Shown here piece after piece: positions 1 to 14,407 of a DNA stretch of 64,000 bases. The notes under the pieces are model-generated. The model worked only from the letters and a program-made list of their open reading frames with translations, was not told where the DNA came from and ran no database searches. The translations under genes and the position numbers were made by a program. Source of the DNA: Alphaproteobacteria bacterium. GTDB taxonomy: Bacteria; Pseudomonadota; Alphaproteobacteria; RF32; CAG-239. The stretch lies in NCBI GenBank assembly GCA_045659785.1, contig JAZRCM010000003.1, positions 31,982-95,981 on the forward strand, given 5' to 3'. Position 1 is the stretch's first letter. Each line of letters begins with the position of its first letter.

Positions 1-1973
1 GAAAAAGCACTTGCTAAAGTTAGGTTATAGCTTCCTTTCCAAATCAGATATGCTATAATTTCACGAACGTTTGTTCTGGCAATGATAACGTTATAGCTTC
101 CTTTCCAAATCAGATATGCTATAATCCTTTGCTAACTCTTTACCATTAACTTTGAGTTATAGCTTCCTTTCCAAATCAGATATGCTATAATGTCAGGAAG
201 CGGAAAGACATACAGAGCTAAGTTATAGCTTCCTTTCCAAATCAGATATGCTATAATATGACAACTTATTTTATAAAAAGATGACTTGTTATAGCTTCCT
301 TTCCAAATCAGATATGCTATAATTTTAAGTCGTGTTAATGGCGTTTCTTTCGCGTTATAGCTTCCTTTCCAAATCAGATATGCTATAATTAAGGAGTCTG
401 CCGAATAACCAATAAGGCAGTTATAGCTTCCTTTCCAAATCAGATATGCTATAATGCTGCTTGTCCGTCAATATCAGCATACCCAGTTATAGCTTCCTTT
501 CCAAATCAGATATGCTATAATAGTTCGGACTTGCTTAAAGGCTCGGCTAAAGTTATAGCTTCCTTTCCAAATCAGATATGCTATAATAAATTCTCGTCTT
601 CAATTTTGACTTCGTTTGTTATAGCTTCCTTTCCAAATCAGATATGCTATAATTATTCGCCAACTGTCCACGATAAACTTAATGTTATAGCTTCCTTTCC
701 AAATCAGATATGCTATAATCATTGAAAACGGAATAACAAATGAAATACTGTTATAGCTTCCTTTCCAAATCAGATATGCTATAATTACCTTTGACCGCCT
801 GTCATTCGTAATAATGTTATAGCTTCCTTTCCAAATCAGATATGCTATAATTATTTGGCTCTTAATGTTTCCGTTTCTTCTGTTATAGCTTCCTTTCCAA
901 ATCAGATATGCTATAATCAAGCAAATGGTGTTGAAGTGCTGTATTACGTTATAGCTTCCTTTCCAAATCAGATATGCTATAATGAAGCCGGAGCGATTGC
1001 GTCATAGATGATTGTTATAGCTTCCTTTCCAAATCAGATATGCTATAATAACCGAAAACAAAACCGTGTATGATTTCAGTTATAGCTTCCTTTCCAAATC
1101 AGATATGCTATAATCTGTTCATTCTTTAACCCTCATATAATCATGTTATAGCTTCCTTTCCAAATCAGATATGCTATAATAAGTGTATTTTTTACTTGGA
1201 CATTTAATTTGTTATAGCTTCCTTTCCAAATCAGATATGCTATAATCTCCTATAAAATTTATGGTTGCCAATAACTGTTATAGCTTCCTTTCCAAATCAG
1301 ATATGCTATAATCAAAGTCATCGTATATATAAAAGAGCTTACGTTATAGCTTCCTTTCCAAATCAGATATGCTATAATACAGTACCGACAAAAGGTGTCT
1401 TCGTATCTGTTATAGCTTCCTTTCCAAATCAGATATGCTATAATACACAACGCACAGACCGCATGCACATATAAGTTATAGCTTCCTTTCCAAATCAGAT
1501 ATGCTATAATGGGAGCAAAAGAAAGGGCGGTAATACCCGAGTTATAGCTTCCTTTCCAAATCAGATATGCTATAATGTGTTCAAAAGTCATCAAATGGAC
1601 GACCACGTTATAGCTTCCTTTCCAAATCAGATATGCTATAATAATCTATCCGCAAAGGCGAGACCGGAACACGTTATAGCTTCCTTTCCAAATCAGATAT
1701 GCTATAATTCACAATGTAATATAACTATATTAATATTAGTTATAGCTTCCTTTCCAAATCAGATATGCTATAATTTCAATTCTTCAACATTCTTATAACC
1801 TACGAGTTATAGCTTCCTTTCCAAATCAGATATGCTATAATAAGTACGGGCAGCTTCTCCAGTTTCCTTGCGTTATAGCTTCCTTTCCAAATCAGATATG
1901 CTATAATTTAATCCGTGAAACGTTGTCATAACATCAAGTTATAGCTTCCTTTCCAAATCAGATATGCTATAAT
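1..1973 (+). CRISPR. CRISPR array with at least 30 identical 36-nt repeats (GTTATAGCTTCCTTTCCAAATCAGATATGCTATAAT), first full repeat at 24..59 and then every 66 nt (30-nt spacers) to the last repeat at 1938..1973. Positions 1..23 look like a partial spacer, so the array continues upstream of the window.
   Basis: Seen directly: exact 66-nt periodicity, identical repeats, unique 30-nt spacers. Each repeat ends in TGcTATAAT, a perfect extended -10 element, which implies + strand transcription from every repeat. I recall the N. meningitidis II-C repeat as GTTGTAGCTCCCTTTCTCATTTCGCAGTGCTACAAT, which is strongly similar. Confidence 0.97.
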
Positions 1974-1984
1974 ACATACAAATT

Positions 1985-2020
1985 AACCTGTTGATTTTTC
2001 AACAGGTTTTCTTCTTTTTT
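1985..2020 (+). terminator. Rho-independent terminator closing the array transcript (stem aacctgttg/caacaggtt followed by a T-run)
   Basis: Perfect 9-bp inverted repeat followed by ttcttctttttt, immediately after the last repeat. Confidence 0.6.
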
Positions 2021-2030
2021 CAATAAAAAA

Positions 2031-2381
2031 TCACAACAATAAAAGCTGTTTATCACCAATTTTTTCCTCTTTTTTTAGTGTTCCAACCAATATCTCCATA
2101 GAAGCATATTGTTTTTCCGTTACTGTCAATAGTCTAACACTTCCTTCTTTTGGAATCAAGGACTTAAGTCGTTTTGCGTGCTTATCCACAGCATCTTGCC
2201 CCTTACAAATTCGAGAATATACTGATAATTGCAGCATTGTATACCCGTCTTTCACTAGGAAATTCCTAAAGCGACTCGCATTTCGTCTATCTGTTTTTGT
2301 CAGCGTCGGAAGATCAAAAAACACTATTATTCGCATATATCTTTCTCCTCCTACTGCCATTTTATCCACAGCCTCAATCAA
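2031..2381 (-). CDS. cas2: CRISPR-associated endoribonuclease Cas2. The true start may be an internal Met (MAVGG... or MRIIVFFDLP...).
   Basis: ~100-aa protein with an MRIIVFFDLP...L.VYSR Cas2-like N-terminal beta-strand. Overlaps the cas1 stop and is adjacent to the array. Confidence 0.85.
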   Translation of the reverse strand: MIEAVDKMAVGGERYMRIIVFFDLPTLTKTDRRNASRFRNFLVKDGYTMLQLSVYSRICKGQDAVDKHAKRLKSLIPKEGSVRLLTVTEKQYASMEILVGTLKKEEKIGDKQLLLL

Positions 2382-3276
2382 AAAGTGGCATTTTTTTTAG
2401 TATGGGTACTTGCAGATATTTTACATCTTTATTTTTTATCGCTTTGACCATACTTATCGCCATCAGTTCACACGATTTTAAAATATTTATTTCTTCATCA
2501 TTTATTATACAGTTTTGAGTTAACACACTCACTAATTCATTTTTTAAAACAGGAGACAACTCTTTCACATCTTCCAAATTAAGTTTATTAACCTGATAAT
2601 CAACAAAAGCTCGATAAGGCTCCATCATATCGTCAACCAAATTAAACTGATTTAATTTATTAGCATGATGAACTCCGAAACAAGGCAATAATCCGGCTCC
2701 AACTACCGCTCGAGCCATACAACCTCGCATAATTGCGTAACCATAATTCAATGCAGAATTTCGAATATCGAAATCATCATTACGATTAAAATTATCAAAT
2801 AAACTTTTCCAATAAACATTTGCAGCAAAAGCTTCTGAATTTTTAGAATCTCCGGACTGCACCTGTTTAGATATTTCTCGCAATTTTTTTGCATTTACAC
2901 AATTAAACAACTCTAAACACATAGCCTGATTATTAATTTTTGCTTTTACAATTTCTTGCCAAATTCTTTTCTTTAATGGCTCTGACATTTCTATCTGATT
3001 CCAAGCAATTTCAGAATATCGAGAATGATTATGAAAAGGAAAAAATGCCCCCGACGGTAAGTGGGAGGCATCTGTTGAAAACATAACTATATTATTATTG
3101 GCAAATTCTGAAATAAGCGAATTATGTAAAGATATTTGTTTATTTTCTAGAATAATAACCGAAATATCTTCTAAAGGAAGTGTCAAACTTTCTCCTTCTA
3201 AGGGTTGATATAAAAGTTGCTTATTCTTTACTGCCAAATGACATGGCTTTGTTATTTGTAAAATTCGCCACCCCAT
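2374..3276 (-). CDS. cas1: CRISPR-associated integrase Cas1 (type II)
   Basis: 300 aa, translationally coupled to cas9 upstream and cas2 downstream. Cas1-like conserved acidic/His residues are present in the C-terminal half. Confidence 0.9.
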   Translation of the reverse strand: MGWRILQITKPCHLAVKNKQLLYQPLEGESLTLPLEDISVIILENKQISLHNSLISEFANNNIVMFSTDASHLPSGAFFPFHNHSRYSEIAWNQIEMSEPLKKRIWQEIVKAKINNQAMCLELFNCVNAKKLREISKQVQSGDSKNSEAFAANVYWKSLFDNFNRNDDFDIRNSALNYGYAIMRGCMARAVVGAGLLPCFGVHHANKLNQFNLVDDMMEPYRAFVDYQVNKLNLEDVKELSPVLKNELVSVLTQNCIINDEEINILKSCELMAISMVKAIKNKDVKYLQVPILKKMPLFD

Positions 3277-3279
3277 ACA

Positions 3280-6200
3280 TTATCCTTTCTGTTGTTTCCT
3301 TTTTGCTCTATCCTCACGACGTTGCCGTTCTGGTTTGATTTTTTGTGAAAATCTTTCTTTTTCTTTATTTATTTTTGTTAAATTTCCAAGTCTATCTATT
3401 GTAAATTTTTGTAATTTTTCAATAACAGATATATTTACTTTCTTTTCCTTATTGATTTTTATATATGGCTTAGTAGTAATATATTTTTTAGTTGTTTTTC
3501 CTTTTTTATCTAATTTTTCTTTAGCCTCAATAACATTGTATTTACCACTACTTGTAATTGAGCGTAAAACACTTTTTTCATTGTCATATTCAACAATCTG
3601 TGCCTCTATTATCTCTTCATCATCAATCTGTACACGAATATAATCTCCTACTTCCAAAGTACTAGTGTTAATTTCATATTCTCTACTACCATTAATACTT
3701 TCTACAAAAATCTGTCCTGTTCCAGAATCATATTGCTTTACATAACCTGTAAATTCTTCTTTCTCCATAGTCAATATCTTAATATAAGACCCTTTGTATA
3801 AACTGAATACAAAATCATCCGCAACAGCCTCCTTTTCAATACCATCTTTTCCAACAGGCTGAATGATATGTTTGAAATTTTTCTTATGCAGATCAATAGC
3901 ATATATAGGTACACAATAATAACCTTCTACCCCATGATATATATCATATCTAAACATTGAATCTAGTTGGACATCTATGGTATTTTGAGCTGCACTTCTC
4001 GTAATAAGTTCATAACCTTTTTTCTTTTTATTAGGTTGTTTGTGAGCTTGCCCAGTTGCGGAACAACGCACCATTTTGGAAACAGTAACTTTTTCAAGAG
4101 ATTCTAAAACTTGTTCTCTAAATCCCACCCAAGGTACTAAATCTTCTTTATTAGAATGTATTCCTTTTTCTTCAAATTGCTTTAACACACTACATATATA
4201 ATAAATATGTCCGAAAGAAGCACATGCTATTACTATAGCATCTTGAGCATGGTGCTTATTATTTTCGTTTCTATTTTTATCAAGCCCCCACATATGACGG
4301 AGTTTAGCGGTTATTCCTCCTCCTAGAACACGTATACGATTAACATCAAGTATAGTATTATTTTGTGATTGTTCAAAACTAAAATATTTACGCAAATATT
4401 CTGCAATATGACGTGTTGCATAACGAGTATTATTCAAATCTCGAGATATAAAATTCTTCATATCTTCTTCGGTAAAACTTTCACGCAATAAATTACGTTT
4501 TTTTGCACTACTCATCTTATTACCACTTAATACTCTTACCTTGAATTTTTGCCATTCTTCCTTTGTTTTAACCTTATCAAAATATTCATATGGGGTACGA
4601 TTTGCCTTTTCTCTATTTGCCAAATTTGAACACAACACCTTATTTTGTAAGCTATCATTAAAAGAGCGACTAATAGGTATAATATGATCAATATCACAGT
4701 CAAATATACTTATTTGATCTGTTGAAGTATTTACACTATTTTCTAAAGATATTCCTTTTCCTGTATATATACACTTAAAATCTTGTTCTTCAGCTAATCT
4801 GAAACGTAGCAAATTATCTCCCTCATCTGGATTAATACTATTTGCTATACACCTTTCTTTTGCAGCATCACGTTGTTCTTTGTAACGTATTTGTCCATTA
4901 TAAATACGAGCGATTTTATCTTTAGAGTTGGCAACATCTGTTGCTAATTCTATATGAATCTCATCTATAACACCATATGTCTTGTTAATAGCATTAACAG
5001 TTTTACGAAATTCTGCAATAATTCGAGATACAGTCGCATTATTCTTAAATGATCCTGTATATGGTTCTATTAAAGTTGTTTTTTCTACTGCTATGTCTCC
5101 ATAACCTAATTCATTTTTAGCATCATTGAATAACATACCATTTGACATTTTGAAATTCAATTCTGATAAAGCTTTACGTGAAAAATGTGTAACTTCCTTC
5201 ATATTTAATTCAAGAATTTTATTAATGATTTCTTCATTATCAATTCCTTTATCTTTCAAATATGAGACACGCATTTCATCTGTTTGATAATATACAAGAG
5301 CTTCTGCTATATCATTTAGCTTGTCTTTAATATCATTAAAAAAGCTTCCTAGGCCTTTTTTTAACATATGGTAACCAGAAAACTCAACAAATATTTCTTT
5401 TTCAAACTGAGCAAGATACTTATCAATTCCTATCTCTGCTTCTGATAAACAGTAGTCCTTCTTAATTATTTCAAAACGGCTATTTTCAGAAATTGATAAT
5501 TGTTTACGTACATCAGAAAAATAATATTTAATTTTTTTTGCATTTACATACTTGTTAAAATATTCATTTGCTTTTGCCTTTAGCTCTTCCCAGCAACTAT
5601 ATTGATATTCACCAGTATTCGTATCGTACAAATTTAATTTTTCATCATTAAATTCTTCCAACTTATCTTTTTCTATTGTAATACTTTTTTCATATTCAGG
5701 ATTAAATTCTCGATATGAACATAAATTAAATCTTTGGCAAACATCTAATTTAAGTAACTGTCGCAAATCGCTAAAAGAAACTTTAACTTTCTTGTTAAGA
5801 GCAAAATCTAATATTTTTTTACGCTCATCATCTTTTAAATCTTCCCTATTTTTTATCTTCAAATTATTTACGCGATTATAAAACGTGAATAGTTCCGCTT
5901 CATAACCATGTTTAGGAAAACGCAGTTCTCCGCGTAGTAACTCGCACTCTCCTATCATTTTTTTGATATTGGTATCATTCAATGGATGAGTGTACATTAA
6001 AACTTCTTTAATATAACGTTCTTCAAACTCTTTAGATAAAATAGTATTACCCTGTCCTCTCTGGAACTCAAAAATCTTATTCACTTCATCTATCAATTCC
6101 GTTCTATATAATGAAATGCCATAATCATCCTTATGATTATGTTTTTTACCTTCTTTGTTAAAAATATACTCCCCTATCGTAGTGCAACCACTCTCTTTAA

Positions 6201-6783
6201 ACTCATTTCTAATAGTTGCAATTCCAAATTTTACTTTTTTATCTTCAGAAGTTTTGTTTTCTTTGGACGGTTCTAATATTTCTTTTTCCTCTGCTTTTGT
6301 TGGAAAATAAAAACCTCTATGATTGGCAATATGATATAATATTCTAAATATTTCTTTTTTTTGCAACTTTTCATATATTGATCGTTTTCTTAATCTCCAT
6401 ATATCCCAATCTTTATCTTTCCAACATGTTGCTTTTTTAGTAGTATTTTGTTCTTTTGGTGCAGAAAATACTTCATTAAAATTAAAATCTTTTGAAATGA
6501 TACCATATTCTTTGGCTAATTTAATAAGGTATCTAAGACGTTCAGCTTTTCGCTCAATAGTCGCTCTTGTTCTGCGCTTCTCTCCTCTATCTGCTAATAA
6601 ACTCTTTCCTGATCTGTCAACAGGTTCATCAAAAACTCTTACTCCACTAGCAACAATCTTTCCATTTTTAATTCGGTACTTAGCCTCATTTTCTTTACCA
6701 TCTAGTAGTTCTTCATCCAAATCAACTACAGCCCAACCGAGTGAGCCTATACCTAAATCTAATCCAAGTACTCTCTTTTTCAT
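3280..6783 (-). CDS. cas9: Cas9 endonuclease, type II-C. Probably ~1167 aa, starting at MKKRVLGLDLGIGSLGWAVV; the ORF track extends 18 codons further upstream.
   Basis: RuvC-I motif (LGLDLGIGSLGWAV) at the N-terminus, an arginine-rich bridge helix (RGEKRRTRATIERKAERLRYL), an HNH motif (DIDHIIPISRSFNDSLQNKVLCSNLANREK) and RuvC-III (HHAQDAIVIA). Followed directly by cas1-cas2 with no csn2 or cas4. Confidence 0.97.
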   Translation of the reverse strand: MKKRVLGLDLGIGSLGWAVVDLDEELLDGKENEAKYRIKNGKIVASGVRVFDEPVDRSGKSLLADRGEKRRTRATIERKAERLRYLIKLAKEYGIISKDFNFNEVFSAPKEQNTTKKATCWKDKDWDIWRLRKRSIYEKLQKKEIFRILYHIANHRGFYFPTKAEEKEILEPSKENKTSEDKKVKFGIATIRNEFKESGCTTIGEYIFNKEGKKHNHKDDYGISLYRTELIDEVNKIFEFQRGQGNTILSKEFEERYIKEVLMYTHPLNDTNIKKMIGECELLRGELRFPKHGYEAELFTFYNRVNNLKIKNREDLKDDERKKILDFALNKKVKVSFSDLRQLLKLDVCQRFNLCSYREFNPEYEKSITIEKDKLEEFNDEKLNLYDTNTGEYQYSCWEELKAKANEYFNKYVNAKKIKYYFSDVRKQLSISENSRFEIIKKDYCLSEAEIGIDKYLAQFEKEIFVEFSGYHMLKKGLGSFFNDIKDKLNDIAEALVYYQTDEMRVSYLKDKGIDNEEIINKILELNMKEVTHFSRKALSELNFKMSNGMLFNDAKNELGYGDIAVEKTTLIEPYTGSFKNNATVSRIIAEFRKTVNAINKTYGVIDEIHIELATDVANSKDKIARIYNGQIRYKEQRDAAKERCIANSINPDEGDNLLRFRLAEEQDFKCIYTGKGISLENSVNTSTDQISIFDCDIDHIIPISRSFNDSLQNKVLCSNLANREKANRTPYEYFDKVKTKEEWQKFKVRVLSGNKMSSAKKRNLLRESFTEEDMKNFISRDLNNTRYATRHIAEYLRKYFSFEQSQNNTILDVNRIRVLGGGITAKLRHMWGLDKNRNENNKHHAQDAIVIACASFGHIYYICSVLKQFEEKGIHSNKEDLVPWVGFREQVLESLEKVTVSKMVRCSATGQAHKQPNKKKKGYELITRSAAQNTIDVQLDSMFRYDIYHGVEGYYCVPIYAIDLHKKNFKHIIQPVGKDGIEKEAVADDFVFSLYKGSYIKILTMEKEEFTGYVKQYDSGTGQIFVESINGSREYEINTSTLEVGDYIRVQIDDEEIIEAQIVEYDNEKSVLRSITSSGKYNVIEAKEKLDKKGKTTKKYITTKPYIKINKEKKVNISVIEKLQKFTIDRLGNLTKINKEKERFSQKIKPERQRREDRAKRKQQKG

Positions 6784-6849
6784 TTTTAACACCCATATAA
6801 AAATTATCTTGACTACAACTTTAGCATTTGCTATCAATAAAGCAAGATA

Positions 6850-6974
6850 TTTTTAATTGTATTGTCTGATTTGGAAAGGAAGCATTATAACAATTGAAAA
6901 TTTCTTATCGAAATTTTTCGAGTGGGGCCCTGGCGATAGTCAACTTGTTTGATGTGTAGCCATCCCCTTTTTTG
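6850..6974 (+). ncRNA. tracrRNA candidate, divergent from cas9. Anti-repeat at ~6861..6891 (ATTGTCTGATTTGGAAAGGAAGCATTATAAC), then a small hairpin and a 3' G/C-rich hairpin ending in a T6 run at 6968..6973.
   Basis: 19 contiguous nt (TCTGATTTGGAAAGGAAGC) plus flanking partial matches are complementary to the CRISPR repeat, with a bulge. Orientation is compatible with + strand crRNAs. A possible promoter sits upstream (TTGACT 6809..6814, then a TGcTATCAAT-like -10). Confidence 0.75.
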
Positions 6975-6978
6975 ATAC

Positions 6979-7010
6979 AAAAAAACAGGCCGGAGCCTGT
7001 TATTTTTGTG
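6979..7010. terminator. Bidirectional hairpin terminator (acaggc-cgga-gcctgt) with A-run and T-run flanks, shared by tracrRNA read-through and the convergent membrane-protein gene
   Basis: aaaaaaacaggccggagcctgttatttttgtg. Confidence 0.5.
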
Positions 7011-7971
7011 TTATTTCTTTTAACATTTTGCGGCGACGAACACCTAAATATGTTTCATACCCCACTAGAGCAACTGCCGAAACTATCAACGGCAATAAAT
7101 AGTATATAATTCGATATGCAATCAAAGCTCCGAATAACATTAAGCGGTCATTATCGCCAGGAATTATGAACATAAACAATCCTTCAAAAACTCCCAATCC
7201 ACCCGGAACCTGACTAAATACACCCAGTACTTGAGCAATAATAAACACTCCCATAAATGTCATAAATTCGATATGCACAAACGGAATAAGCACAAAATAC
7301 AGCACCAATGACGCCATAACAATATCAATCGCTCCCAAGAGCATTTGAGCCAAAGCCATTGAGAAAGAAGGCATATCCAATGAAACACCTTTTACATCTA
7401 TCGGTTTTTTATAAAAAATGCTTAATCCGAAATAGCCTAACAAACCGACAAATGACAACAAAGTCACAATTTGAGTTGTAAATTTAGAAACAGTTCCGGC
7501 TCCGATTGCTTGTGACGGAGTTAAGAGATAACCGACAATAATCAAAAAGAAACAAGCAACTAAATATGTAAATCCTGAAAACGTAACCATACGAACAATT
7601 TCTGTCGCTCTGAAACGCCAACGAGTATATAAACGATATCTTATTGTTCCACCGGAAACAATCGCATGTCCTGCATTATTACTCACCGAAAAACCGATAA
7701 ATCCGGCAAACACCCATTTCCAAATTGCAACACGTCGTTTTATGTAACGAAGCGCCAAATAATCGTATGAAGACAAAGCAATATATCCGCCAAAAGAGGC
7801 TAATCCGGCCATAATCAAATTTTTATGCGGAATATCCAACAACGCATTTTTTATATCTTCCAAACTATATTTCGAAAGCTGATGATAAAGCATATACGCA
7901 GCCAAGGCAAAGAAAAATAATCCTGCCCATGAAACAGCTTTCTTTAATACTCTTTTGGTTTGAAATGCCAT
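7000..7971 (-). CDS. Polytopic membrane protein, flippase-like / lysylphosphatidylglycerol-synthase transmembrane-domain family
   Basis: 323 aa with ~8 predicted TM helices. The family assignment is from memory of the LPG_synthase_TM domain pattern. Confidence 0.45.
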   Translation of the reverse strand: MAFQTKRVLKKAVSWAGLFFFALAAYMLYHQLSKYSLEDIKNALLDIPHKNLIMAGLASFGGYIALSSYDYLALRYIKRRVAIWKWVFAGFIGFSVSNNAGHAIVSGGTIRYRLYTRWRFRATEIVRMVTFSGFTYLVACFFLIIVGYLLTPSQAIGAGTVSKFTTQIVTLLSFVGLLGYFGLSIFYKKPIDVKGVSLDMPSFSMALAQMLLGAIDIVMASLVLYFVLIPFVHIEFMTFMGVFIIAQVLGVFSQVPGGLGVFEGLFMFIIPGDNDRLMLFGALIAYRIIYYLLPLIVSAVALVGYETYLGVRRRKMLKEITQK

Positions 7972-8029
7972 TTATCAACTCCATTAATTTTCTAAATATA
8001 TAATCACTAATTACTAAAAGATTATAAAC

Positions 8030-8869
8030 TTAATAAAAAAAATCTAATAAAATTCCGCTCACAACCGCTGAAACATATAAAATCGCCACAATTTTAAGAT
8101 TTTCGTTTCGGTTATGATTAATCCTAAACAAAACCAAAAGACCTACCCCTGCTCCCGATAATGTTCCCGCCATCATAGAACCAAAACTCATCGCACCGTC
8201 AATATATAATTGCGTAATTGCTACAGATGCGGAACAATTCGGAACCAAACCGACAAAAGCGGATGTAATCGGACCTAAAATCGGTCGATTAAAAACAATA
8301 TCATTCAAAAAACTTTCGCCTAATATGGTCAATAGTCCATTAAGAGCCAACGTTACCAACAACACAAAAATTGTTATCTTAAAGGAATGAATTAATGCCG
8401 GCTTTATAATTCCGCCACCATCACAGTGACAGTCTTCTTGCTCACATAAAGTTTCAACATCAACCGGCAACGGAGATTTTCGAAAAGCAACATCACACAG
8501 TAAGCCGAAAAATATTCCTAAAAACAACTTTATCGCTAATATTTTTACAATCAATATAGGTTCAACCGTATTAGAAATTAAAATCGGCAACATCTCATCT
8601 GAGGTTGTCAAAAACACGGCAATCAATGTACCTAACGAAATTGCTTTTACCGCATAAAAGTTCGAAGCCGCAGCGGCAAAACCGCATTGAGGTAACAATC
8701 CGGCAAATGCTCCGGCGATTGTTCCTAATTTTCCTGCTTTTCCGATTAGATTAAGTGATTTTTCCGATGATTTTTTCTCTAACCATTCCAATAATAAATA
8801 CGTCAGAAATAAAAAAGGAAAAACCTTCAATGCACTAAAAAAACTATGTATTATCATTTCAATTAACAA
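8030..8869 (-). CDS. COG0701-like permease (ArsP/YraQ-like) with duplicated Cys motifs and a Cys/His-rich loop
   Basis: Two repeated halves containing LPQCGF and VPNCSAS motifs. The central loop CEQEDCHCDGGG suggests metal or metalloid binding. Confidence 0.4.
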   Translation of the reverse strand: MLIEMIIHSFFSALKVFPFLFLTYLLLEWLEKKSSEKSLNLIGKAGKLGTIAGAFAGLLPQCGFAAAASNFYAVKAISLGTLIAVFLTTSDEMLPILISNTVEPILIVKILAIKLFLGIFFGLLCDVAFRKSPLPVDVETLCEQEDCHCDGGGIIKPALIHSFKITIFVLLVTLALNGLLTILGESFLNDIVFNRPILGPITSAFVGLVPNCSASVAITQLYIDGAMSFGSMMAGTLSGAGVGLLVLFRINHNRNENLKIVAILYVSAVVSGILLDFFY

Positions 8870-10245
8870 TTAATGTTTGTAGCAAGTCCGGCTAATGATG
8901 TTTCTTTATACTTTGAACTCAAACTCAAACCGGTTTCATACATTGTTTTAATAATGTTATCAAGACTGACAATATGCGGACCATTAGGATTGCGCATAGC
9001 TAAACGAGCCGCATTAACCGCTTTAACTGCCCCCATTGCATTACGTTCAATACATGGTACCTGAACAAGTCCTTTAATCGGGTCACAGGTCAAACCTAAA
9101 TTGTGCTCCATTGCAATTTCCGCAGCATTTTCAATTTGACGTAAATTACCACCCAAAACTGCAACCAAACCACCGGCGGCCATAGAACACGCAACTCCTA
9201 TTTCGCCCTGACATCCGACTTCGGCACCGGAAATAGAGGCATTTGTACGATATAAACTGCAAATAGCAGAAGCTGTTGTCAAAAATACTATATTGGCTTT
9301 TTCTAAACTAAAAGGTGATTTTTGAATTGCAAAACGTTGATAATAGCGCATAACAGCCGGGAGAACGCCTGCAGATCCCATTGTCGGAGCGGTAACGATT
9401 TTACCTCCACAAGCATTTTCTTCTGCAACAGCAAATGCCCATAAATTAATCCAATCAACAATCATCAATGCATCAACATTGTTTTCGGCAAATTTTGTAG
9501 TTAAATCATTATAGATTCCGGCAGCTCGTCTTTTCAATTTTAATCCGCCGGGCAAAATTCCCTCAATTTTAACACCTCTGTCAACCGTTGCCTGCATAAT
9601 ATCGGCAATACGCAAAATTTCTTTTCTGACTTTAGCGGGAGATTGTAATTTTTGTTCGTTTTTCAGCACCAATTCTGATATTGTTAATTGGTCTTTATGA
9701 CACATTTCTAAAAGTTCTTTACAACTATTAAATTGGTACGGAACTTTATATGGCTTACGTTCAATTCGTTGTGTCATTTCATCTTGGCGAGCAATGGTAC
9801 CACCGCCAACGGAAAAATATGTTTCTTCCAAAATGATATTATCGTTGCCGTCATAGGCCGTAATTTTCATACCGTTTGAATGTTCGGGAAGAAATATTTT
9901 TTTCTCTAAAATTATATCTTCATCAAAATTAAAATCGATAACCGATTTTCCGCCTAAATTAAGTTTTTTGCTTTCCTTAACCTGTCCGATATAATCAATA
10001 TCCAAATCTATATTTTGTGCTTCAAGCCCCATCAAACCATAGACAACCGCGTTTAACGTTCCGTGTCCTAATCCGGTCAAAGCCAAAGAACCGTACAAAG
10101 TTGTTTTGACAGTTTTGACATTATTCAAATCTGTTTTTTCTGCCAAATTATCTACATATCTTTTTGCTGCTCTCATCGGACCAACCGTATGAGAACTTGA
10201 CGGACCGATTCCTACCGAAAAAATTTCAAACAAACTATAATACAT
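8863..10245 (-). CDS. sdaA: L-serine dehydratase, single-chain iron-sulfur type
   Basis: N-terminal [19 protein letters not shown] signature and 460 aa length. Confidence 0.85.
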
Positions 10246-10310
10246 ATTTCACCTCATGAGGCGATATTAGCCTTTCTTTTTTATTTTGCAAGCTTCAACA
10301 TCCCTCTTTT

Positions 10311-10345
10311 AAACAAAAAAATAAGCGTCCCAAAGGACGCCTATC
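10311..10345 (-). terminator. Terminator for the GC-rich secreted-protein gene (gcgtcc-caaa-ggacgc followed by a T-run on the - strand)
   Basis: Perfect 6-bp stem hairpin with a poly-T on the minus strand, just downstream of the 10365 stop. Confidence 0.55.
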
Positions 10346-10364
10346 TTTTCATTTCGCGATGAAC

Positions 10365-11270
10365 TTAGCAAACAACGTCAACCAACACGCGAGGTGGCTG
10401 GAAAGTTGTCATCGACACCTTCTTAGGCTCTCCGGAGTATCCGGGGAAGAACACAGTACCACAACCGCGGAAGTAACCCAACACCTTGTAAGATGCCAGC
10501 TTACCGTCCCAACCCCAGAATACCTGGTAGTTGCAACCATACACGTCATTCTCGTTTGTGATGTTGATCATCGGAGTTGTAAGAAACTCGAGACCACCCC
10601 ACAAAACGCCGTAGACGTTACTGTCGGAGTAAACCCACTGGCTAACTGCGTCAGCCTTAGGCTTATAGACGTCGAAGTCAAATTGAGATTCTACAAACTC
10701 ATACTTCTCCTCAAGAGCAGCTGCGGAAATACCGTAGAACTCACCCTTAAGGATGTTCTGAGCTGCGAAGAAACCCTCTTCTAGAACAACTTCGTGTTCT
10801 ACAAAGCCGTCAATTACTGACTGCAACTTCTCGCCCGGCTTCACGTTTTTCCAAACGCGAATGCTCTCCTGCTTTACAGCTGTGAAGATACCGTGCTTAC
10901 GAGCCATCTTGAGACCATGCTCCTTATAAGATACGAAGTGGTAGTCCACTCCAATCTCATTGTAAAGCACCTCCGGCATAGCCACGAAGTCTCCATTGAG
11001 ACGGCAAATGGCCTCTGTCTTCTTGTCCTCCTTAGAAGCGATAACCTCCTGAGGGAAGTCTTCGCCTTTGAGAAGAGCCTGATAATGAGCCTTGCTCACT
11101 ACCGAGATAAAGTTACCCTTGCAAGAAGCAATCTCTGCTGCATTGATGCGATTGAAAACGTTGTTAGAACCATCACGAAAAATCTTGTTCATTTCCATAA
11201 TTAAAAAAGAAATTAAAATTAACCCCATAAGCTTCATCCGGGAAAATAAAGAATCAACGTAAGCGAGCAT
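10365..11270 (-). CDS. Secreted hypothetical protein with anomalously high G+C. Likely start at MKLMGLILISFLIMEM (~11237).
   Basis: N-terminal signal peptide. The gene has visibly higher G+C and GC-rich third codon positions compared with its neighbours, and carries its own terminator. Confidence 0.6.
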   Translation of the reverse strand: MLAYVDSLFSRMKLMGLILISFLIMEMNKIFRDGSNNVFNRINAAEIASCKGNFISVVSKAHYQALLKGEDFPQEVIASKEDKKTEAICRLNGDFVAMPEVLYNEIGVDYHFVSYKEHGLKMARKHGIFTAVKQESIRVWKNVKPGEKLQSVIDGFVEHEVVLEEGFFAAQNILKGEFYGISAAALEEKYEFVESQFDFDVYKPKADAVSQWVYSDSNVYGVLWGGLEFLTTPMINITNENDVYGCNYQVFWGWDGKLASYKVLGYFRGCGTVFFPGYSGEPKKVSMTTFQPPRVLVDVVC

Positions 11271-11505
11271 CGAAAAATTTTCAACGCCGTTGAAGTTTTG
11301 TTTCTACATATTCCCACATATCACTTGAAAGATTAAAATCCTTATCAATATGAAATGAACCTATATAATTGACATATACGTAAACTAGAATAATACAAAA
11401 CTAAGTTTAGTATATCACGTTCAACTCATTTTTCAACAAAATTTTGACAAAATTGTTATATTTTTTTTTACTTTTATATGTTACTCCATATAACAAGAGG
11501 GAAAA

Positions 11506-12441
11506 ATGAAATCTGCAAAAAACAAAACTATTGATATAAGCTTAACCGACGGACAAGAATATTTGGAACGTTGCATTTCCGTCAATCGCAAAACGGAAGT
11601 GAAAAATATACTCAACAAAACCATAATTGGTGATTCGCTGAAAGTTATGGAAAAGCTTCCTCGCTCATTTGTAGATTTGTTGATTGTAGATCCGCCTTAT
11701 AATTTGAACAAAAATTATCACGGTAATAAATTTAACCAAACAAACAACGAAGAATATGAACAATACACCACCGCATGGATAGAAAAAGTCTTACCGTTGT
11801 TAAAACCCAATGCCTCGATTTATGTATGTTGTGATTGGAAATCAAGTTTGGTTATCGGTCCGGTTTTGGAAAAATATTTTCAAATTCAAAATCGCATAAC
11901 CTGGCAAAGAGAAAAAGGACGAGGTGCAAATCATAACTGGAAAAACGGTATGGAAGATATATGGTTTGCCACCATGAACAATGATTATACCTTTAATCTT
12001 GATGACGTAAAAATTCGCAGACGAGTTTTAGCACCATATAAAGAAAACGGTAAACCTAAAGATTGGGAACAAACCGAAAACGGACGTTTTCGTAACACTT
12101 GCCCTTCTAACTTTTGGGATGACATTTCTATTCCCTACTGGTCAATGCCCGAAAATACTGCTCACCCGACACAAAAACCGGAAAAACTCATCGCTAAACT
12201 GATATTGGCAAGCTCTAATAAAGATGATGTAGTTTTTGACCCGTTTTTAGGCTCCGGAACAACATCGGTTACAGCGAAAAAACTGGGAAGAAAATATATC
12301 GGTATCGAACAAAATCCCAATTATTGCATTTGGGCCGAAAAACGTCTTGAACTGGCTGAAACCAATTCACAAATACAAGGATATTCCGATGGAATTTTTT
12401 GGGAAAGAAACGCTCAACCAAATAAAAAAGCTCCGAATTAA
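11506..12441 (+). CDS. Beta-class DNA N6-adenine (or N4-cytosine) methyltransferase, CcrM/M.HinfI-like, orphan
   Basis: Motif IV DPPYNL is followed by motif I FDPFLGSGTT, and AHPTQKPEKLI ... GRKYIGIE closely resembles Caulobacter CcrM as I recall it. No adjacent endonuclease gene. Confidence 0.8.
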   Translation: MKSAKNKTIDISLTDGQEYLERCISVNRKTEVKNILNKTIIGDSLKVMEKLPRSFVDLLIVDPPYNLNKNYHGNKFNQTNNEEYEQYTTAWIEKVLPLLKPNASIYVCCDWKSSLVIGPVLEKYFQIQNRITWQREKGRGANHNWKNGMEDIWFATMNNDYTFNLDDVKIRRRVLAPYKENGKPKDWEQTENGRFRNTCPSNFWDDISIPYWSMPENTAHPTQKPEKLIAKLILASSNKDDVVFDPFLGSGTTSVTAKKLGRKYIGIEQNPNYCIWAEKRLELAETNSQIQGYSDGIFWERNAQPNKKAPN

Positions 12442-12473
12442 TTTTCGGAGCTTTTCTTAATGAATATCAAACC

Positions 12474-13247
12474 TTATTTGATAAATTTACGGGCCTCTTC
12501 AAGCTCTTCCATTGTATCAATATCAGCCGGAGCTTCTTTGTTCAACTTGAGTTCACTGACCAACTTAGCTCTGATAACCATACCATCTTCCAATGCACGG
12601 AGTTGTTCCAAAGATTCTCTTGCTTCCAAGACACCAACCGGTAAGTTTACGATACGTTGCAAAGAAGCCGCATTATAAACATAAATACCGATATGATGAT
12701 AAAAGTCTTTATTATCACATTTTTCAGGATTACGGATAAAAGGAGCAGCGGCACGAGTAAAGTATAAACAACGACCTTCTGTTTCTCCGTCACGAAGTCC
12801 CATTACGATTTTTACATTATTCGGACTGTCAATATCTGCTTGTGATTTGAACACCATACCAACAGTTGCAATATCACAACCGGTTTCTTCCACAATCTTA
12901 ATCAAATCATTATTAATTTCCGGATTAACATTGATGGCATCGCCTTGGAAATTAACCACGATATCATATTTGTTGCCTTCAGGATCAATTTCTTTTAATG
13001 CAGCAGCAATTCTATCTGTGCCGGAAGGAAGTTTCGGGTCTGTCAAAATAGCCGGAGCACCGAACTCTTTACAAGCATCGATAATAACCTGATCGCCGGC
13101 AGCAACATACACATCACCGGGAACAACTTTCTTCACGTTTTCATAAACACGTTGCAACAAGGTTTTTCCGTTAATATCAAGCAATGGTTTATTCGGCAAA
13201 CGAGTAGATGCCATACGAACCGGAATCATAGTGATAATTTTAGACAT
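12474..13247 (-). CDS. kdsB: 3-deoxy-manno-octulosonate cytidylyltransferase (CMP-KDO synthetase)
   Basis: MIPVRMASTRLPNKPL N-terminus and 257 aa length. Confidence 0.85.
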   Translation of the reverse strand: MSKIITMIPVRMASTRLPNKPLLDINGKTLLQRVYENVKKVVPGDVYVAAGDQVIIDACKEFGAPAILTDPKLPSGTDRIAAALKEIDPEGNKYDIVVNFQGDAINVNPEINNDLIKIVEETGCDIATVGMVFKSQADIDSPNNVKIVMGLRDGETEGRCLYFTRAAAPFIRNPEKCDNKDFYHHIGIYVYNAASLQRIVNLPVGVLEARESLEQLRALEDGMVIRAKLVSELKLNKEAPADIDTMEELEEARKFIK

Positions 13248-13321
13248 TTGTTTCTCCTTATAAGTTCTTGCAAATATTTATTGTATATACTATAACAGCA
13301 ACAAATAAAAGGACAAAAACA

Positions 13322-14407
13322 ATGCAAGTGGATATTTTTGATTTTGAATTAGATCGCAATTTGATTGCTTCCCAACCGGTTAATCCTCGTGATACATCTC
13401 GTTTACTTGACTTAAGCGATGAGACCTCTATTAACGACCGACATTTTTATGACCTTCCTGATATTTTGCAAAAGGGAGATGTATTGGTATTTAACGATAC
13501 CAAAGTTATTCCCGCTCGTTTATACGGAGCAAGAGGAGAAGCAAAAGTAGAAGTAACGCTTTATCGTCCGGTTGACGGTATTCAATGGTGGGCTTTTATC
13601 AAAAATGCCAAAAGATTGCATCCTGATGATACTATTTATTTCTATACCGACGAAATAACTCCCGAGCAAAGCGACTTTACCGCTAAGGTTATAGAAAAAA
13701 AAGACGATGACGGAGTATTGATAAGCTTTAATTGTTCCCCTGAAATATTGGCAACCAATTTGCAAAAATACGGATTAATGCCTCTTCCTCCGTACATCAA
13801 AAGAGATAAACCCACACAGGGAGGAATATGGGATAAATATAACGATAAAGAAAACTATCAAACCATATATGCGCATTATGAAGGCGCGGTTGCTGCTCCT
13901 ACTGCAGGATTGCACTTTACTCCGCAAGTTTTCGAAGCTTTGGAAAAAAAAGGGATAGAAAAAGTTTTTGTAACTTTACACGTTGGGGCAGGCACTTTTT
14001 TGCCGGTTAAAACCGATGATACCAAAGACCATAAAATGCATGCAGAATATGGCGAAATAAATGCTCAAACCTGTGAAATCATCAACAAAGCCAAAAAAGA
14101 AGGACGCAGAATTATTGCCGTAGGCACGACATCACTTCGTCTTTTGGAAACCGCAACCGATGACAACGGAGTCGTCCACCCTTACGCAGACAGCACCAAT
14201 ATTTTTATTACTCCTGGATATAAGTTTAAATTAATTGATATGATTATAACTAATTTCCACTTACCTAAATCAACTCTTTTTATGTTAATTTGTGCTATTG
14301 CCGGCACTGAAAGAATGAAAAAAGCATATCAACATGCTATTGACAGCAAATATCGTTTCTATTCTTACGGTGACAGTTCAATTATCAAATGCGTAAATAA
14401 AATTTAA
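13322..14407 (+). CDS. queA: S-adenosylmethionine:tRNA ribosyltransferase-isomerase
   Basis: MQVDIFDFELDRNLIASQPV start and a conserved QueA core (GLHFTPQ..., AVGTTSLR). The ORF track has an 18-codon 5' extension. Confidence 0.85.
   Translation: MQVDIFDFELDRNLIASQPVNPRDTSRLLDLSDETSINDRHFYDLPDILQKGDVLVFNDTKVIPARLYGARGEAKVEVTLYRPVDGIQWWAFIKNAKRLHPDDTIYFYTDEITPEQSDFTAKVIEKKDDDGVLISFNCSPEILATNLQKYGLMPLPPYIKRDKPTQGGIWDKYNDKENYQTIYAHYEGAVAAPTAGLHFTPQVFEALEKKGIEKVFVTLHVGAGTFLPVKTDDTKDHKMHAEYGEINAQTCEIINKAKKEGRRIIAVGTTSLRLLETATDDNGVVHPYADSTNIFITPGYKFKLIDMIITNFHLPKSTLFMLICAIAGTERMKKAYQHAIDSKYRFYSYGDSSIIKCVNKI

What the first reader, a model, noticed from the sequence alone, without database searches (positions are those of the whole stretch)
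1..1973. Nme-like type II-C array: every repeat carries a perfect extended -10 promoter (TGcTATAAT)
All 30 repeats are identical and end in TGCTATAAT, so each repeat should start its own crRNA a few nt into the downstream spacer, on the + strand. This is the RNase III-independent crRNA biogenesis seen in Neisseria and Campylobacter II-C systems. Perfect repeat identity across at least 30 units and unique 30-nt spacers suggest an active or recently active locus. The array runs off the window start. Array transcription is convergent with cas2-cas1-cas9, and the terminator hairpin at 1985..2020 stops read-through into the cas genes.
Basis: partly seen in the sequence, partly recalled or inferred. 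Interest (0 to 1): 0.7.

Follow-up and report, generated by a model that had tools for sequence, protein, structure and literature searches.

The report
Type II-C CRISPR array, promoter-bearing repeats
This is a real and probably active Cas9 (type II-C) CRISPR locus in which every repeat ends in a promoter-like TGCTATAAT, the arrangement already shown experimentally in Neisseria and Campylobacter, so it is a clean new example of a known mechanism and not a new one.

Summary
Window 24..1973 holds 30 identical 36-nt repeats (GTTATAGCTTCCTTTCCAAATCAGATATGCTATAAT) and 29 unique spacers of 29-31 nt. The array runs off the window start.

It lies downstream of cas9-cas1-cas2 on the minus strand, with no csn2 or cas4, so the gene content is type II-C. 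A conserved tracrRNA gene on the plus strand (~6844..6973) fixes the crRNA strand as plus. Its anti-repeat (6865..6891) pairs with repeat nt 1-25 with a 2-nt bulge and is followed by two hairpins and a T-run.

Among 19 distinct 36-nt repeats from Cas9 relatives, the only invariant columns are G1, T31, A32 and A34. T36 is kept in 18 of 19. These are the key positions of a -10 hexamer, TAnAnT.

Repeat-embedded crRNA promoters are established for Neisseria meningitidis and Campylobacter jejuni, so this is a new member of a known kind. Promoter activity here is inferred, not shown. No protospacers were found, so the PAM is unknown.

The hairpin at 1985..2008 is real and conserved in relatives. It lies in what the II-C literature treats as the spacer-acquisition leader, so "terminator" may be only part of its role.

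Side finding: the locus is a mosaic. Its cas1-cas2-leader module is 99.6% identical to that of a related genome whose Cas9 is only 35% identical.

The parts
1..23 (+). Partial spacer cut by the window start
   Evidence: 23 nt precede the first repeat, so the array continues beyond the window.
24..1973 (+). CRISPR array: 30 identical 36-nt repeats and 29 unique spacers of 29-31 nt. The crRNA sense is the + strand.
   Evidence: Rfam CRISPR-DR34 matches the + strand at 26.1 bits. Orientation comes from the tracrRNA geometry.
51..59 (+). First of 30 copies of the repeat-terminal extended -10, TGCTATAAT (repeat nt 28-36). It recurs with each repeat (mostly every 66 nt), the last copy at 1965..1973. 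The predicted start of transcription is about spacer nt 6-8.
   Evidence: for the sequence. T31, A32 and A34 are invariant and T36 is kept in 18 of 19 related repeats. TSS position is by analogy with N. meningitidis (PMC12477760, Extended Data Fig. 4 legend: 6th nt of each spacer).
1974..2030 (+). Intergenic stretch between the last repeat and cas2. It is the likely spacer-acquisition leader of this II-C array.
   Evidence: PMC12080349 states that II-C spacers enter at the last repeat. The stretch is 99.6% identical in L002. Conserved motifs lie next to the last repeat in 17 related loci.
1985..2020 (+). Hairpin (stem 1985..1994 / 1999..2008) plus T-run 2009..2020. It looks like an intrinsic terminator on the + strand. 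The same hairpin on the - strand follows the cas2 stop codon but has only a weak T tail.
   Evidence: A hairpin at the same distance from the last repeat is found in related loci, and 6 of 9 pairs show compensatory changes.
2031..2381 (-). cas2 (116-aa ORF from a TTG start; a 109-aa version is called in related loci)
   Evidence: TIGR01573, E 2.9e-25. for the 109-aa calls.
2374..3276 (-). cas1 (300 aa), type II (NMENI) class
   Evidence: TIGR03639 cas1_NMENI, 289 bits against a cutoff of 120.
3280..6783 (-). cas9, 1167 aa from the ATG at 6783. The 1185-aa call from the TTG at 6837 is probably too long.
   Evidence: TIGR01865, 535 bits. HNH_4, RuvC_III and Cas9_RuvC domains; the N-terminus reads MKKRVLGLDLGIGSLGWAVV. 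Relatives are 1163-1167 aa.
6809..6837 (+). Candidate tracrRNA promoter: TTGACT (6809..6814), 17 nt, TATCAA (6832..6837)
   Evidence: for the sequence. CTTGAC is invariant in 5 homologous loci and is followed by a TAT-rich -10 region.
6844..6973 (+). Predicted tracrRNA (~130 nt). The anti-repeat core is 6865..6891 (TCTGATTTGGAAAGGAAGCATTATAAC). Two hairpins follow, and the second (GGGG 6924..6927 / CCCC 6964..6967) is followed by T6 at 6968..6973.
   Evidence: duplex with repeat nt 1-30, -41.2 kcal/mol, 2-nt bulge. Conserved in window, L001, L002, L003 and L004. No Rfam tracrRNA family matched.
6884..6892 (-). TGTTATAAT on the cas9 strand. The 2-nt bulge insertion in the repeat-like DNA opposite the anti-repeat creates it. 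Candidate cas9 promoter -10 (speculative).
   Evidence: best promoter-like site in 1..7600, 10 of 12 matches plus TG.. The same motif is present in L003 and L004.
6856..6861 (-). TACAAT at raw nt 31-36 of the repeat-like copy (equal to nt 29-34 once the 2-nt insertion is allowed for), close to the repeat's own -10. Second candidate cas9 -10 (speculative).
   Evidence: TATAAT, TACACT or TATACT sits at the equivalent place (within 1 nt) upstream of cas9 in L009, L011, L013, L020, L045, L046 and L047.

Best explanation
This is a type II-C CRISPR-Cas9 locus. Each repeat ends in an extended -10 element (TGcTATAAT, no -35). RNA polymerase should therefore start a separate short pre-crRNA about 6-8 nt into each downstream spacer, on the + strand. 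That would leave a guide of about 23-25 nt followed by the next repeat. Repeat nt 1-25 then pairs with the anti-repeat of a tracrRNA transcribed divergently from just upstream of cas9. Cas9 binds the duplex. RNase III may trim the 3' side but is not needed to make the 5' end. Transcripts reaching the end of the array meet a hairpin plus T-run before cas2. The same short intergenic stretch probably serves as the leader where Cas1-Cas2 insert new spacers. Shown here: the anatomy, the strand, the tracrRNA and the conservation of the -10 positions. Inferred: promoter activity, start-site position, RNase III independence and the polarity of acquisition.
For: The 30 identical repeats all end in TGCTATAAT, and the motif is rare elsewhere in the window. 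The gene content is cas9-cas1-cas2 with cas1_NMENI and no csn2 or cas4. The nearest solved structures are compact Cas9s. The strand follows from the tracrRNA: the anti-repeat 6865..6891 (+) pairs with repeat nt 1-30 at -41.2 kcal/mol, with the 2-nt bulge typical of Cas9 guide duplexes. The duplex abuts the spacer, and two hairpins and a T-run follow. This tracrRNA gene, including its -35, is conserved in five loci. The - strand model puts the duplex at the spacer-distal end of the repeat and has no terminator before cas9. Across 19 distinct repeats whose Cas9s are 27-100% identical to the window's, including G+C-rich ones, the only invariant columns are G1, T31, A32 and A34. T36 is kept in 18 of 19 and TG is at nt 28-29 in 13 of 19. 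The 5' partners of the terminal palindrome vary more than the 3' side, and there is no covariation above shuffles. So the constraint sits on the 3' sequence itself. Repeat-embedded promoters with start sites inside spacers were shown experimentally in N. meningitidis and C. jejuni (PMC5965381, PMC3656092, PMC12477760). Five to six related genomes carry the same or a 1-nt variant repeat with entirely different spacer sets, which indicates turnover.
Against: There is no transcript data for this organism, which is an uncultured low-G+C lineage whose relatives are labelled Alphaproteobacteria or Pseudomonadota MAGs. No protospacer was found, so the strand could not be cross-checked through a PAM. 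The generic sigma-70 scan did not list the repeats, because they have no -35. Activity would therefore depend wholly on the TG extension. The repeat's 3' end is also the leader-proximal end, so the Cas1-Cas2 integrase could contribute to its conservation. One related repeat (L025) ends in TATAAC.
Confidence: 0.8

Rival explanations
1. The array is transcribed as one long + strand precursor from a promoter beyond the window start and matured only by tracrRNA and RNase III, as in type II-A. The terminal TATAAT is then conserved because Cas1-Cas2 recognise the leader-proximal repeat end or the terminal inverted repeat (GTTATAGC...GCTATAAT), not because it is a promoter.
For: The repeat ends are near-palindromic, with 80% of cells paired across 19 repeats. 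The TATAAT end abuts the presumed leader (PMC12080349). No -35 is present. There is no expression data.
Against: The palindrome shows no covariation above shuffles and is broken in several repeats where TAnAnT is kept, such as L011, L014 and L045-L047. The invariant columns match the -10 profile: hexamer positions 1, 2, 4 and 6 are kept while 3 and 5 vary. TG sits at exactly the extended -10 spacing in 13 of 19 repeats. Experiments on the same repeat family in Neisseria and Campylobacter show internal start sites (PMC5965381, PMC3656092). The two roles are not mutually exclusive.
Confidence: 0.12
2. crRNAs come from the - strand, co-directional with cas9-cas1-cas2 (the II-A-like layout). The repeat-like copy upstream of cas9 on the - strand would then be the tracrRNA anti-repeat.
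For: The array lies downstream of cas2 on the same strand, so read-through is conceivable. On the - strand the hairpin is followed by only a weak T tail. A repeat-like sequence with a good promoter lies on the - strand at 6892..6865.
Against: In that model the duplex covers repeat nt 11-36, far from the guide, and the 'tracrRNA' runs straight into the cas9 coding sequence without a terminator. Rfam CRISPR-DR34 matches the + strand only. The + strand tracrRNA has a conserved -35, hairpins and a terminator in five loci. All 36-nt relatives share the same layout.
Confidence: 0.03
3. The hairpin at 1985..2008 is mainly a structural element of the acquisition leader or the terminator of the cas operon, and not a device to stop crRNA read-through.
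For: A hairpin sits at the same distance from the last repeat in 17 loci, with conserved GTAAC, TTG and GTT motifs and compensatory changes. Several of these loci have no T-run after it. It lies directly after the cas2 stop codon.
Against: In the window and in L001, L002 and L004 it is a textbook intrinsic terminator on the + strand: a G+C-containing 10-15-bp stem followed by a T-rich tail, weaker in L004. The roles can coexist.
Confidence: 0.35

Closest known systems
Neisseria meningitidis type II-C CRISPR-Cas9 (Zhang et al. 2013, as summarised in PMC5965381; PMC12477760)
   Same: It has cas9-cas1-cas2 only and 36-nt repeats of the same family. The Rfam DR34 consensus is GUUgUAGCUCCCUUUC...GCUAcAAU, against GUUAUAGCUUCCUUUC...GCUAUAAU here. 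It also shares 30-nt spacers, an extended -10 at the repeat 3' end and an array transcribed towards the cas genes. The best solved-structure matches to this Cas9 are 1082-1095-aa Cas9 entries such as 6jdq; that these are Nme-type Cas9s is from memory.
   Different: Here the -10 is the full consensus TATAAT where Neisseria has TACAAT. Here the tracrRNA lies upstream of cas9 and is divergent from it; in N. meningitidis, from memory, it lies between cas9 and cas1. The Cas9 is longer (1167 aa). The Rfam score is below the gathering cutoff (26.1 against 35 bits). Nothing has been tested experimentally here.
Campylobacter jejuni minimal type II-C system (Dugar et al. 2013, PMC3656092)
   Same: [quoted passage not shown] Only three cas genes are present. 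The tracrRNA pairs with the repeat.
   Different: The C. jejuni arrays in that study are much shorter (4-8 repeats). The Cas9 is more distant (5x2g, E 3e-32). The hosts differ: an epsilonproteobacterium there, an uncultured low-G+C MAG lineage here.
Mechanisms against extraneous crRNA and the array polarity of II-C systems (Feussner et al. 2025, PMC12080349)
   Same: That paper describes each repeat carrying a promoter, new spacers entering at the last repeat, and the first (oldest-end) repeat often being mutated. L004, which has the same repeat, carries a 1-nt mutant as its first, cas-distal repeat.
   Different: The window's own cas-distal end is not visible. In L002 the distal repeat is intact and the neighbouring gene is divergent.

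Membership tests
Type II-C CRISPR-Cas | cas9 effector gene with HNH and split RuvC domains | tested here: met
   TIGR01865, 535 bits against a cutoff of 100. HNH_4, RuvC_III and Cas9_RuvC.
Type II-C CRISPR-Cas | cas1 and cas2 present, with no csn2 (II-A) and no cas4 (II-B) in the operon | tested here: met
   cas9, cas1 and cas2 are contiguous. The next gene upstream is an MprF-like membrane protein, and the array follows cas2 directly.
Type II-C CRISPR-Cas | tracrRNA with an anti-repeat complementary to the CRISPR repeat | tested here: met
   (-41.2 kcal/mol duplex, 2-nt bulge); conserved in 5 loci with promoter and terminator. This is sequence-level evidence only, and expression was not tested.
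Type II-C CRISPR-Cas | Cas9 groups with II-C Cas9s and not with II-A or II-B | tested here: inconclusive
   the top PDB matches are compact Cas9s of 1055-1154 aa (E 1e-82 to 1e-64), far ahead of the 1368-aa SpCas9-type entries (E ~1e-14). No phylogeny was built, and the species of the PDB entries is from memory.
II-C arrays with repeat-embedded crRNA promoters (Nme/Cje type) | A -10 element, often with a TG extension, at the 3' end of every repeat in crRNA sense | tested here: met
   TGCTATAAT in 30 of 30 repeats; the TAnAnT columns are the most conserved in 19 related repeats.
II-C arrays with repeat-embedded crRNA promoters (Nme/Cje type) | crRNA strand opposite to the cas operon | tested here: met
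   Inferred from the tracrRNA duplex geometry and the Rfam strand. No RNA data.
II-C arrays with repeat-embedded crRNA promoters (Nme/Cje type) | Primary (5'-triphosphate) crRNA ends inside each spacer | not testable with these tools
   Needs dRNA-seq or 5' RACE.
II-C arrays with repeat-embedded crRNA promoters (Nme/Cje type) | Interference independent of RNase III | not testable with these tools
   Needs genetics in the host or a heterologous system.
Rfam RF01344 CRISPR-DR34 | Score at or above the gathering threshold (35 bits) | tested here: not met
   26.1 bits, E 0.09, full-length match on the + strand. It resembles the family but is not a member by Rfam's cutoff.

The most novel reading that the evidence does not exclude
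The repeat-type -10 may also have been co-opted as the cas9 promoter. The DNA opposite the tracrRNA anti-repeat is a fossil repeat on the cas9 strand, about 100 nt upstream of cas9. In the window it carries TGTTATAAT, created by the very 2-nt insertion that forms the guide-duplex bulge, and TACAAT close to the place of the repeat's own -10. Seven related loci keep TATAAT, TACACT or TATACT at the equivalent place. If these sites are active, crRNAs and cas9 mRNA are driven by the same repeat-derived promoter module. The 5' ends of cas9 mRNA and tracrRNA would then overlap in antisense, which would allow coupled or RNase III-mediated control. In addition, the effector (cas9 plus the 5' half of the tracrRNA) appears to swap between genomes independently of an almost unchanged cas1-cas2-leader-repeat module.
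Probability: 0.2. Interest if true: 0.5.

Novelty: new member of a known kind. Interest (0 to 1): 0.25.

Why it matters
It adds a clean, consensus-strength example of repeat-embedded crRNA promoters from an uncultured low-G+C lineage. The comparison across 19 related repeats also shows that the -10 positions are the most conserved part of the repeat. That supports the view that self-promoting repeats are a general trait of this branch of type II-C and not a peculiarity of Neisseria and Campylobacter.

There are two practical points. First, the locus gives a ready design for guide RNAs: a guide of about 24 nt, repeat nt 1-25, and the tracrRNA at 6865..6973. Second, two Cas9 proteins only 35% identical appear to use the same repeat and nearly the same tracrRNA. 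This could interest people looking for Cas9 orthologs with interchangeable guides and possibly different PAMs. None of this changes current understanding of CRISPR biology.

Tried and rejected
Protospacer and PAM search:
- The whole array against INPHARED phages gave only chance hits, with E >= 0.6 and several spanning repeat-spacer borders.
- PLSDB plasmids gave one chance hit.
- Eight 23-nt spacer cores against IMG/VR gave 0 hits each.
- All spacers of the window, L001, L002 and L004 against every fetched locus and the window gave only 14-19-nt chance matches and no self-targets.
- The PAM therefore could not be inferred, and the strand could not be cross-checked that way.

Extending the array beyond the window start:
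- The NCBI Cas9 call (P0001) is not on record in the contig index.
- The identical Cas1 led to a different genome, L002.

Other checks:
- The - strand crRNA/tracrRNA model was rejected on duplex geometry and the lack of a terminator.
- A terminal-palindrome hairpin as the reason for conservation showed no covariation above shuffles.
- Rfam gave no tracrRNA family hit and only a sub-threshold CRISPR-DR34 hit.
- The genome-contig scan returned a single relative, so the metagenome scan supplied the comparison set.
- The generic sigma-70 scan does not flag the repeats because it requires a -35.
- Base composition at spacer nt 5-10 shows no strong start-site bias, which is uninformative.
- Zhang et al. 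2013 itself is not held in the library, so its content is cited through PMC5965381 and PMC12477760.
Full report
OBSERVATION

The window begins inside a CRISPR array. An exact scan finds 30 copies of the 36-nt repeat GTTATAGCTTCCTTTCCAAATCAGATATGCTATAAT on the + strand, from 24 to 1973, with no mismatch in any copy. There are 29 complete spacers, all different: 27 of 30 nt, one of 29 nt and one of 31 nt. A 23-nt partial spacer lies at 1..23. A 3-mismatch search finds the same 30 sites and nothing else, with zero expected in shuffles. Every repeat ends in TGCTATAAT. Elsewhere in the window TGNTATAAT occurs only three times on both strands. The described features are real and sit at the stated coordinates.

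SURROUNDINGS

Downstream of the array in + sense, on the - strand, lie three genes:
- cas2, 2031..2381 (TIGR01573);
- cas1, 2374..3276 (TIGR03639 cas1_NMENI, 289 bits);
- cas9, 3280..6783 (TIGR01865, 535 bits; HNH_4, RuvC_III and Cas9_RuvC domains).

The real cas9 start is most likely the ATG at 6783, giving MKKRVLGLDLGIGSLGWAVV and 1167 aa like its relatives. The TTG at 6837 used in the 1185-aa database call is less likely. The next gene upstream is an MprF-like membrane protein. There is no csn2 or cas4, so the gene content is type II-C. The best solved-structure matches are compact Cas9s of 1055-1154 aa (E 1e-82 to 1e-64). SpCas9-type entries score only about 1e-14.

WHICH STRAND IS THE crRNA?

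The decisive evidence is a tracrRNA gene. The repeat has no exact or near-exact reverse-complement copy elsewhere in the window. A gapped search finds a degenerate copy just upstream of cas9. Read on the + strand, 6865..6891 is TCTGATTTGGAAAGGAAGCATTATAAC. It is complementary to repeat nt 1-25 with a 2-nt bulge.

RNAduplex gives -41.2 kcal/mol for repeat nt 1-30 against 6858..6892. The duplex starts at the first repeat nucleotide, next to the guide, as in all Cas9 guide RNAs. Two hairpins follow the anti-repeat. The second (GGGG 6924..6927 / CCCC 6964..6967) is followed by T6 at 6968..6973. Upstream lies TTGACT-17-TATCAA at 6809..6837.

The whole unit is conserved in five homologous loci (window, L001, L002, L003, L004). 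The conserved parts are an invariant CTTGAC, a TAT-rich -10 region, the anti-repeat, a CGAAA...TTTCG hairpin and the GGGG...CCCC-T-run terminator.

The alternative - strand model puts the duplex at the far end of the repeat (nt 11-36) and has no terminator before the cas9 coding sequence. Rfam's Neisseria-type repeat model CRISPR-DR34 also matches the + strand only, though below its gathering score (26.1 against 35 bits). The + strand reading of the first stage is therefore supported by independent evidence.

IS THE TGCTATAAT MORE THAN A COINCIDENCE?

I collected loci encoding Cas9 relatives from genome and metagenome contigs and extracted their arrays. All 36-nt arrays lie downstream of cas2. 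In all but a few of these loci a repeat-like copy sits about 100 nt upstream of cas9 on the cas9 strand, so they share the same layout.

The loci give 19 distinct repeats. Their Cas9s range from 27% to 100% identity to the window's, and the set includes G+C-rich repeats. The only invariant columns are G1, T31, A32 and A34. T3 and T36 are at least 90% conserved. Columns 31-36 therefore read TAnAnT. The observed forms are TATAAT, TACAAT, TATACT and TACACT. Hexamer positions 1, 2, 4 and 6 are kept and positions 3 and 5 vary, which is the conservation profile of a sigma-70 -10 element (textbook knowledge). TG sits at nt 28-29 in 13 of the 19 repeats. One repeat (L025) ends in TATAAC.

The repeat ends are also near-palindromic (GTTATAGC...GCTATAAT). 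Across the 19 repeats, however, the palindrome shows no covariation above shuffles. Its 5' partners vary more than the 3' side, and it is broken in several repeats that keep TAnAnT. A 1-nt repeat variant found in L084, L085 and L088 (A27G) also keeps TGCTATAAT.

The sequence constraint is therefore on the 3'-terminal motif itself. This part of the repeat is not needed for tracrRNA pairing. A promoter role explains the pattern best. A contribution from integrase recognition of the leader-proximal repeat end cannot be excluded.

WHAT IS KNOWN

Promoters embedded in each repeat, with transcription starting inside the downstream spacer, were shown for N. meningitidis and C. jejuni type II-C arrays:
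- PMC5965381 reviews Zhang et al. 2013.
- PMC12477760 (Extended Data Fig. 4 legend) states that transcription "initiates from the 6th nt of each spacer".
- PMC12080349 treats this as the general II-C configuration. It also states that new spacers enter at the last repeat in transcription order.

THE HAIRPIN AT 1985..2008

The hairpin is real: a 10-bp stem and a 4-nt loop, -13.8 kcal/mol, followed by TTCTTCTTTTTT. On the + strand it looks like an intrinsic terminator. On the - strand it follows the cas2 stop codon but has only a weak T tail.

A hairpin at the same distance from the last repeat occurs in 17 related loci. Six of nine pairs show compensatory changes, and the motifs GTAAC, TTG and GTT are conserved. 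Several of these loci lack a T-run after the hairpin. PMC12080349 puts II-C acquisition at this end of the array, so 1974..2030 is probably the functional leader. The hairpin may serve acquisition as well as, or instead of, termination.

ACTIVITY

L002 is a related genome with identical Cas1. It carries 11 identical repeats with 9 other distinct spacers. L004 has the identical repeat with 23 other distinct spacers. L084/L085 and L088 have further spacer sets. No spacer is shared with the window. This supports recent spacer turnover. Tandem spacer duplications occur in L002, L004 and L084, and they point to recombination between the identical repeats.

No protospacer was found in cultured phages, plasmids, IMG/VR (eight spacer cores), the fetched loci or the window itself. 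The targets and the PAM remain unknown.

SIDE FINDINGS

(a) The locus is a mosaic. Against L002 the comparison gives:
- chromosomal flank upstream of cas9: 88.5% identical;
- cas1-cas2-leader (3297..1974): 99.6% identical;
- Cas9: only 35% identical (1167 against 1014 aa);
- tracrRNA: differs in its 5' half (no bulge in L002) but is identical in its 3' hairpin.

Cas1 proteins 94-100% identical to the window's are found in seven other loci. In the six of these where cas9 is visible, it is the short L002-type Cas9. The window-type Cas9's nearest relatives (L003, L004, L001) carry Cas1s only 69-73% identical to the window's. The effector has therefore been exchanged independently of the adaptation module and repeat.

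(b) The DNA opposite the anti-repeat reads as a fossil repeat on the cas9 strand. In the window the 2-nt bulge insertion creates TGTTATAAT (6892..6884). This is the best promoter-like site in 1..7600, and it points into cas9. TACAAT lies at 6861..6856, close to the place of the repeat's own -10. Seven relatives have TATAAT, TACACT or TATACT at the equivalent place. This suggests a repeat-derived cas9 promoter, but it is untested. In some loci it may simply reflect full-length anti-repeat complementarity.

VERDICT

This is a new member of a known kind: a Neisseria/Campylobacter-type II-C array with self-promoting repeats, in an uncultured low-G+C lineage. Interest is modest. The mechanism is textbook for II-C, and the value lies in the clean comparative support and the mosaic-locus side finding.

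Noticed in passing
window 1974..13745 compared with L002 1..11304; also L084, L085, L086, L087, L088: The locus is a mosaic. The flank upstream of cas9 is 88.5% identical to L002, cas1-cas2-leader is 99.6% identical, and Cas9 is only 35% identical (1167 against 1014 aa). Near-identical Cas1 (94-100%) is otherwise paired with the short L002-type Cas9, while the window-type Cas9's nearest relatives carry Cas1s only 69-73% identical. So cas9 plus the 5' half of the tracrRNA was exchanged independently of the adaptation module and repeat.
   Followed up: partly
window 6884..6892 (-) and 6856..6861 (-); L009, L011, L013, L020, L045, L046, L047 about 70 nt upstream of cas9: The DNA opposite the tracrRNA anti-repeat is a degenerate repeat on the cas9 strand. 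It keeps or re-creates -10 elements aimed at cas9: TGTTATAAT, made by the 2-nt bulge insertion, and TACAAT close to the place of the repeat's own -10. This may be a repeat-derived cas9 promoter whose transcript overlaps the tracrRNA 5' end in antisense.
   Followed up: partly
window 1974..2030 and the equivalent 55 nt in 16 related loci: The stretch next to the cas-proximal repeat has a positionally conserved hairpin with compensatory changes and conserved GTAAC, TTG and GTT motifs, even where no T-run follows. It is likely a leader element for spacer acquisition.
   Followed up: partly
L002 11869..12000; L004 array; L084 array: Tandem duplications of whole spacer-repeat units occur. In L002 the two cas-distal spacers are identical, L004 has one spacer three times in a row, and L084 repeats a two-spacer block. 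L085, which otherwise shares L084's spacers, lacks that duplication. This indicates recombination or slippage between identical repeats.
   Followed up: no
L004 11770..11805: The first (cas-distal, oldest-end) repeat of an array with the same repeat carries a point mutation (C8T). This fits the 'mutated extra repeat' described for II-C arrays in PMC12080349. In L002 the distal repeat is intact.
   Followed up: no
window 6784..6837 (-): The database protein for this cas9 (P0001, 1185 aa) starts at the TTG at 6837. Homologs and the conserved N-terminus indicate the ATG at 6783 (1167 aa). The extra 18 codons would lie over the tracrRNA promoter.
   Followed up: partly
window 6984..7001: A second hairpin (AACAGGCCGGAGCCTGTT) with T-runs on both strands lies between the tracrRNA end and the MprF-like gene. 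It looks like a bidirectional terminator and is identical in L002.
   Followed up: no
window 30085..30144 (+): There is a weak partial resemblance to the repeat (ATAGCTTCC..AGCAAATCAGGTAT, score 28 against 44 for the anti-repeat). It is probably chance.
   Followed up: no
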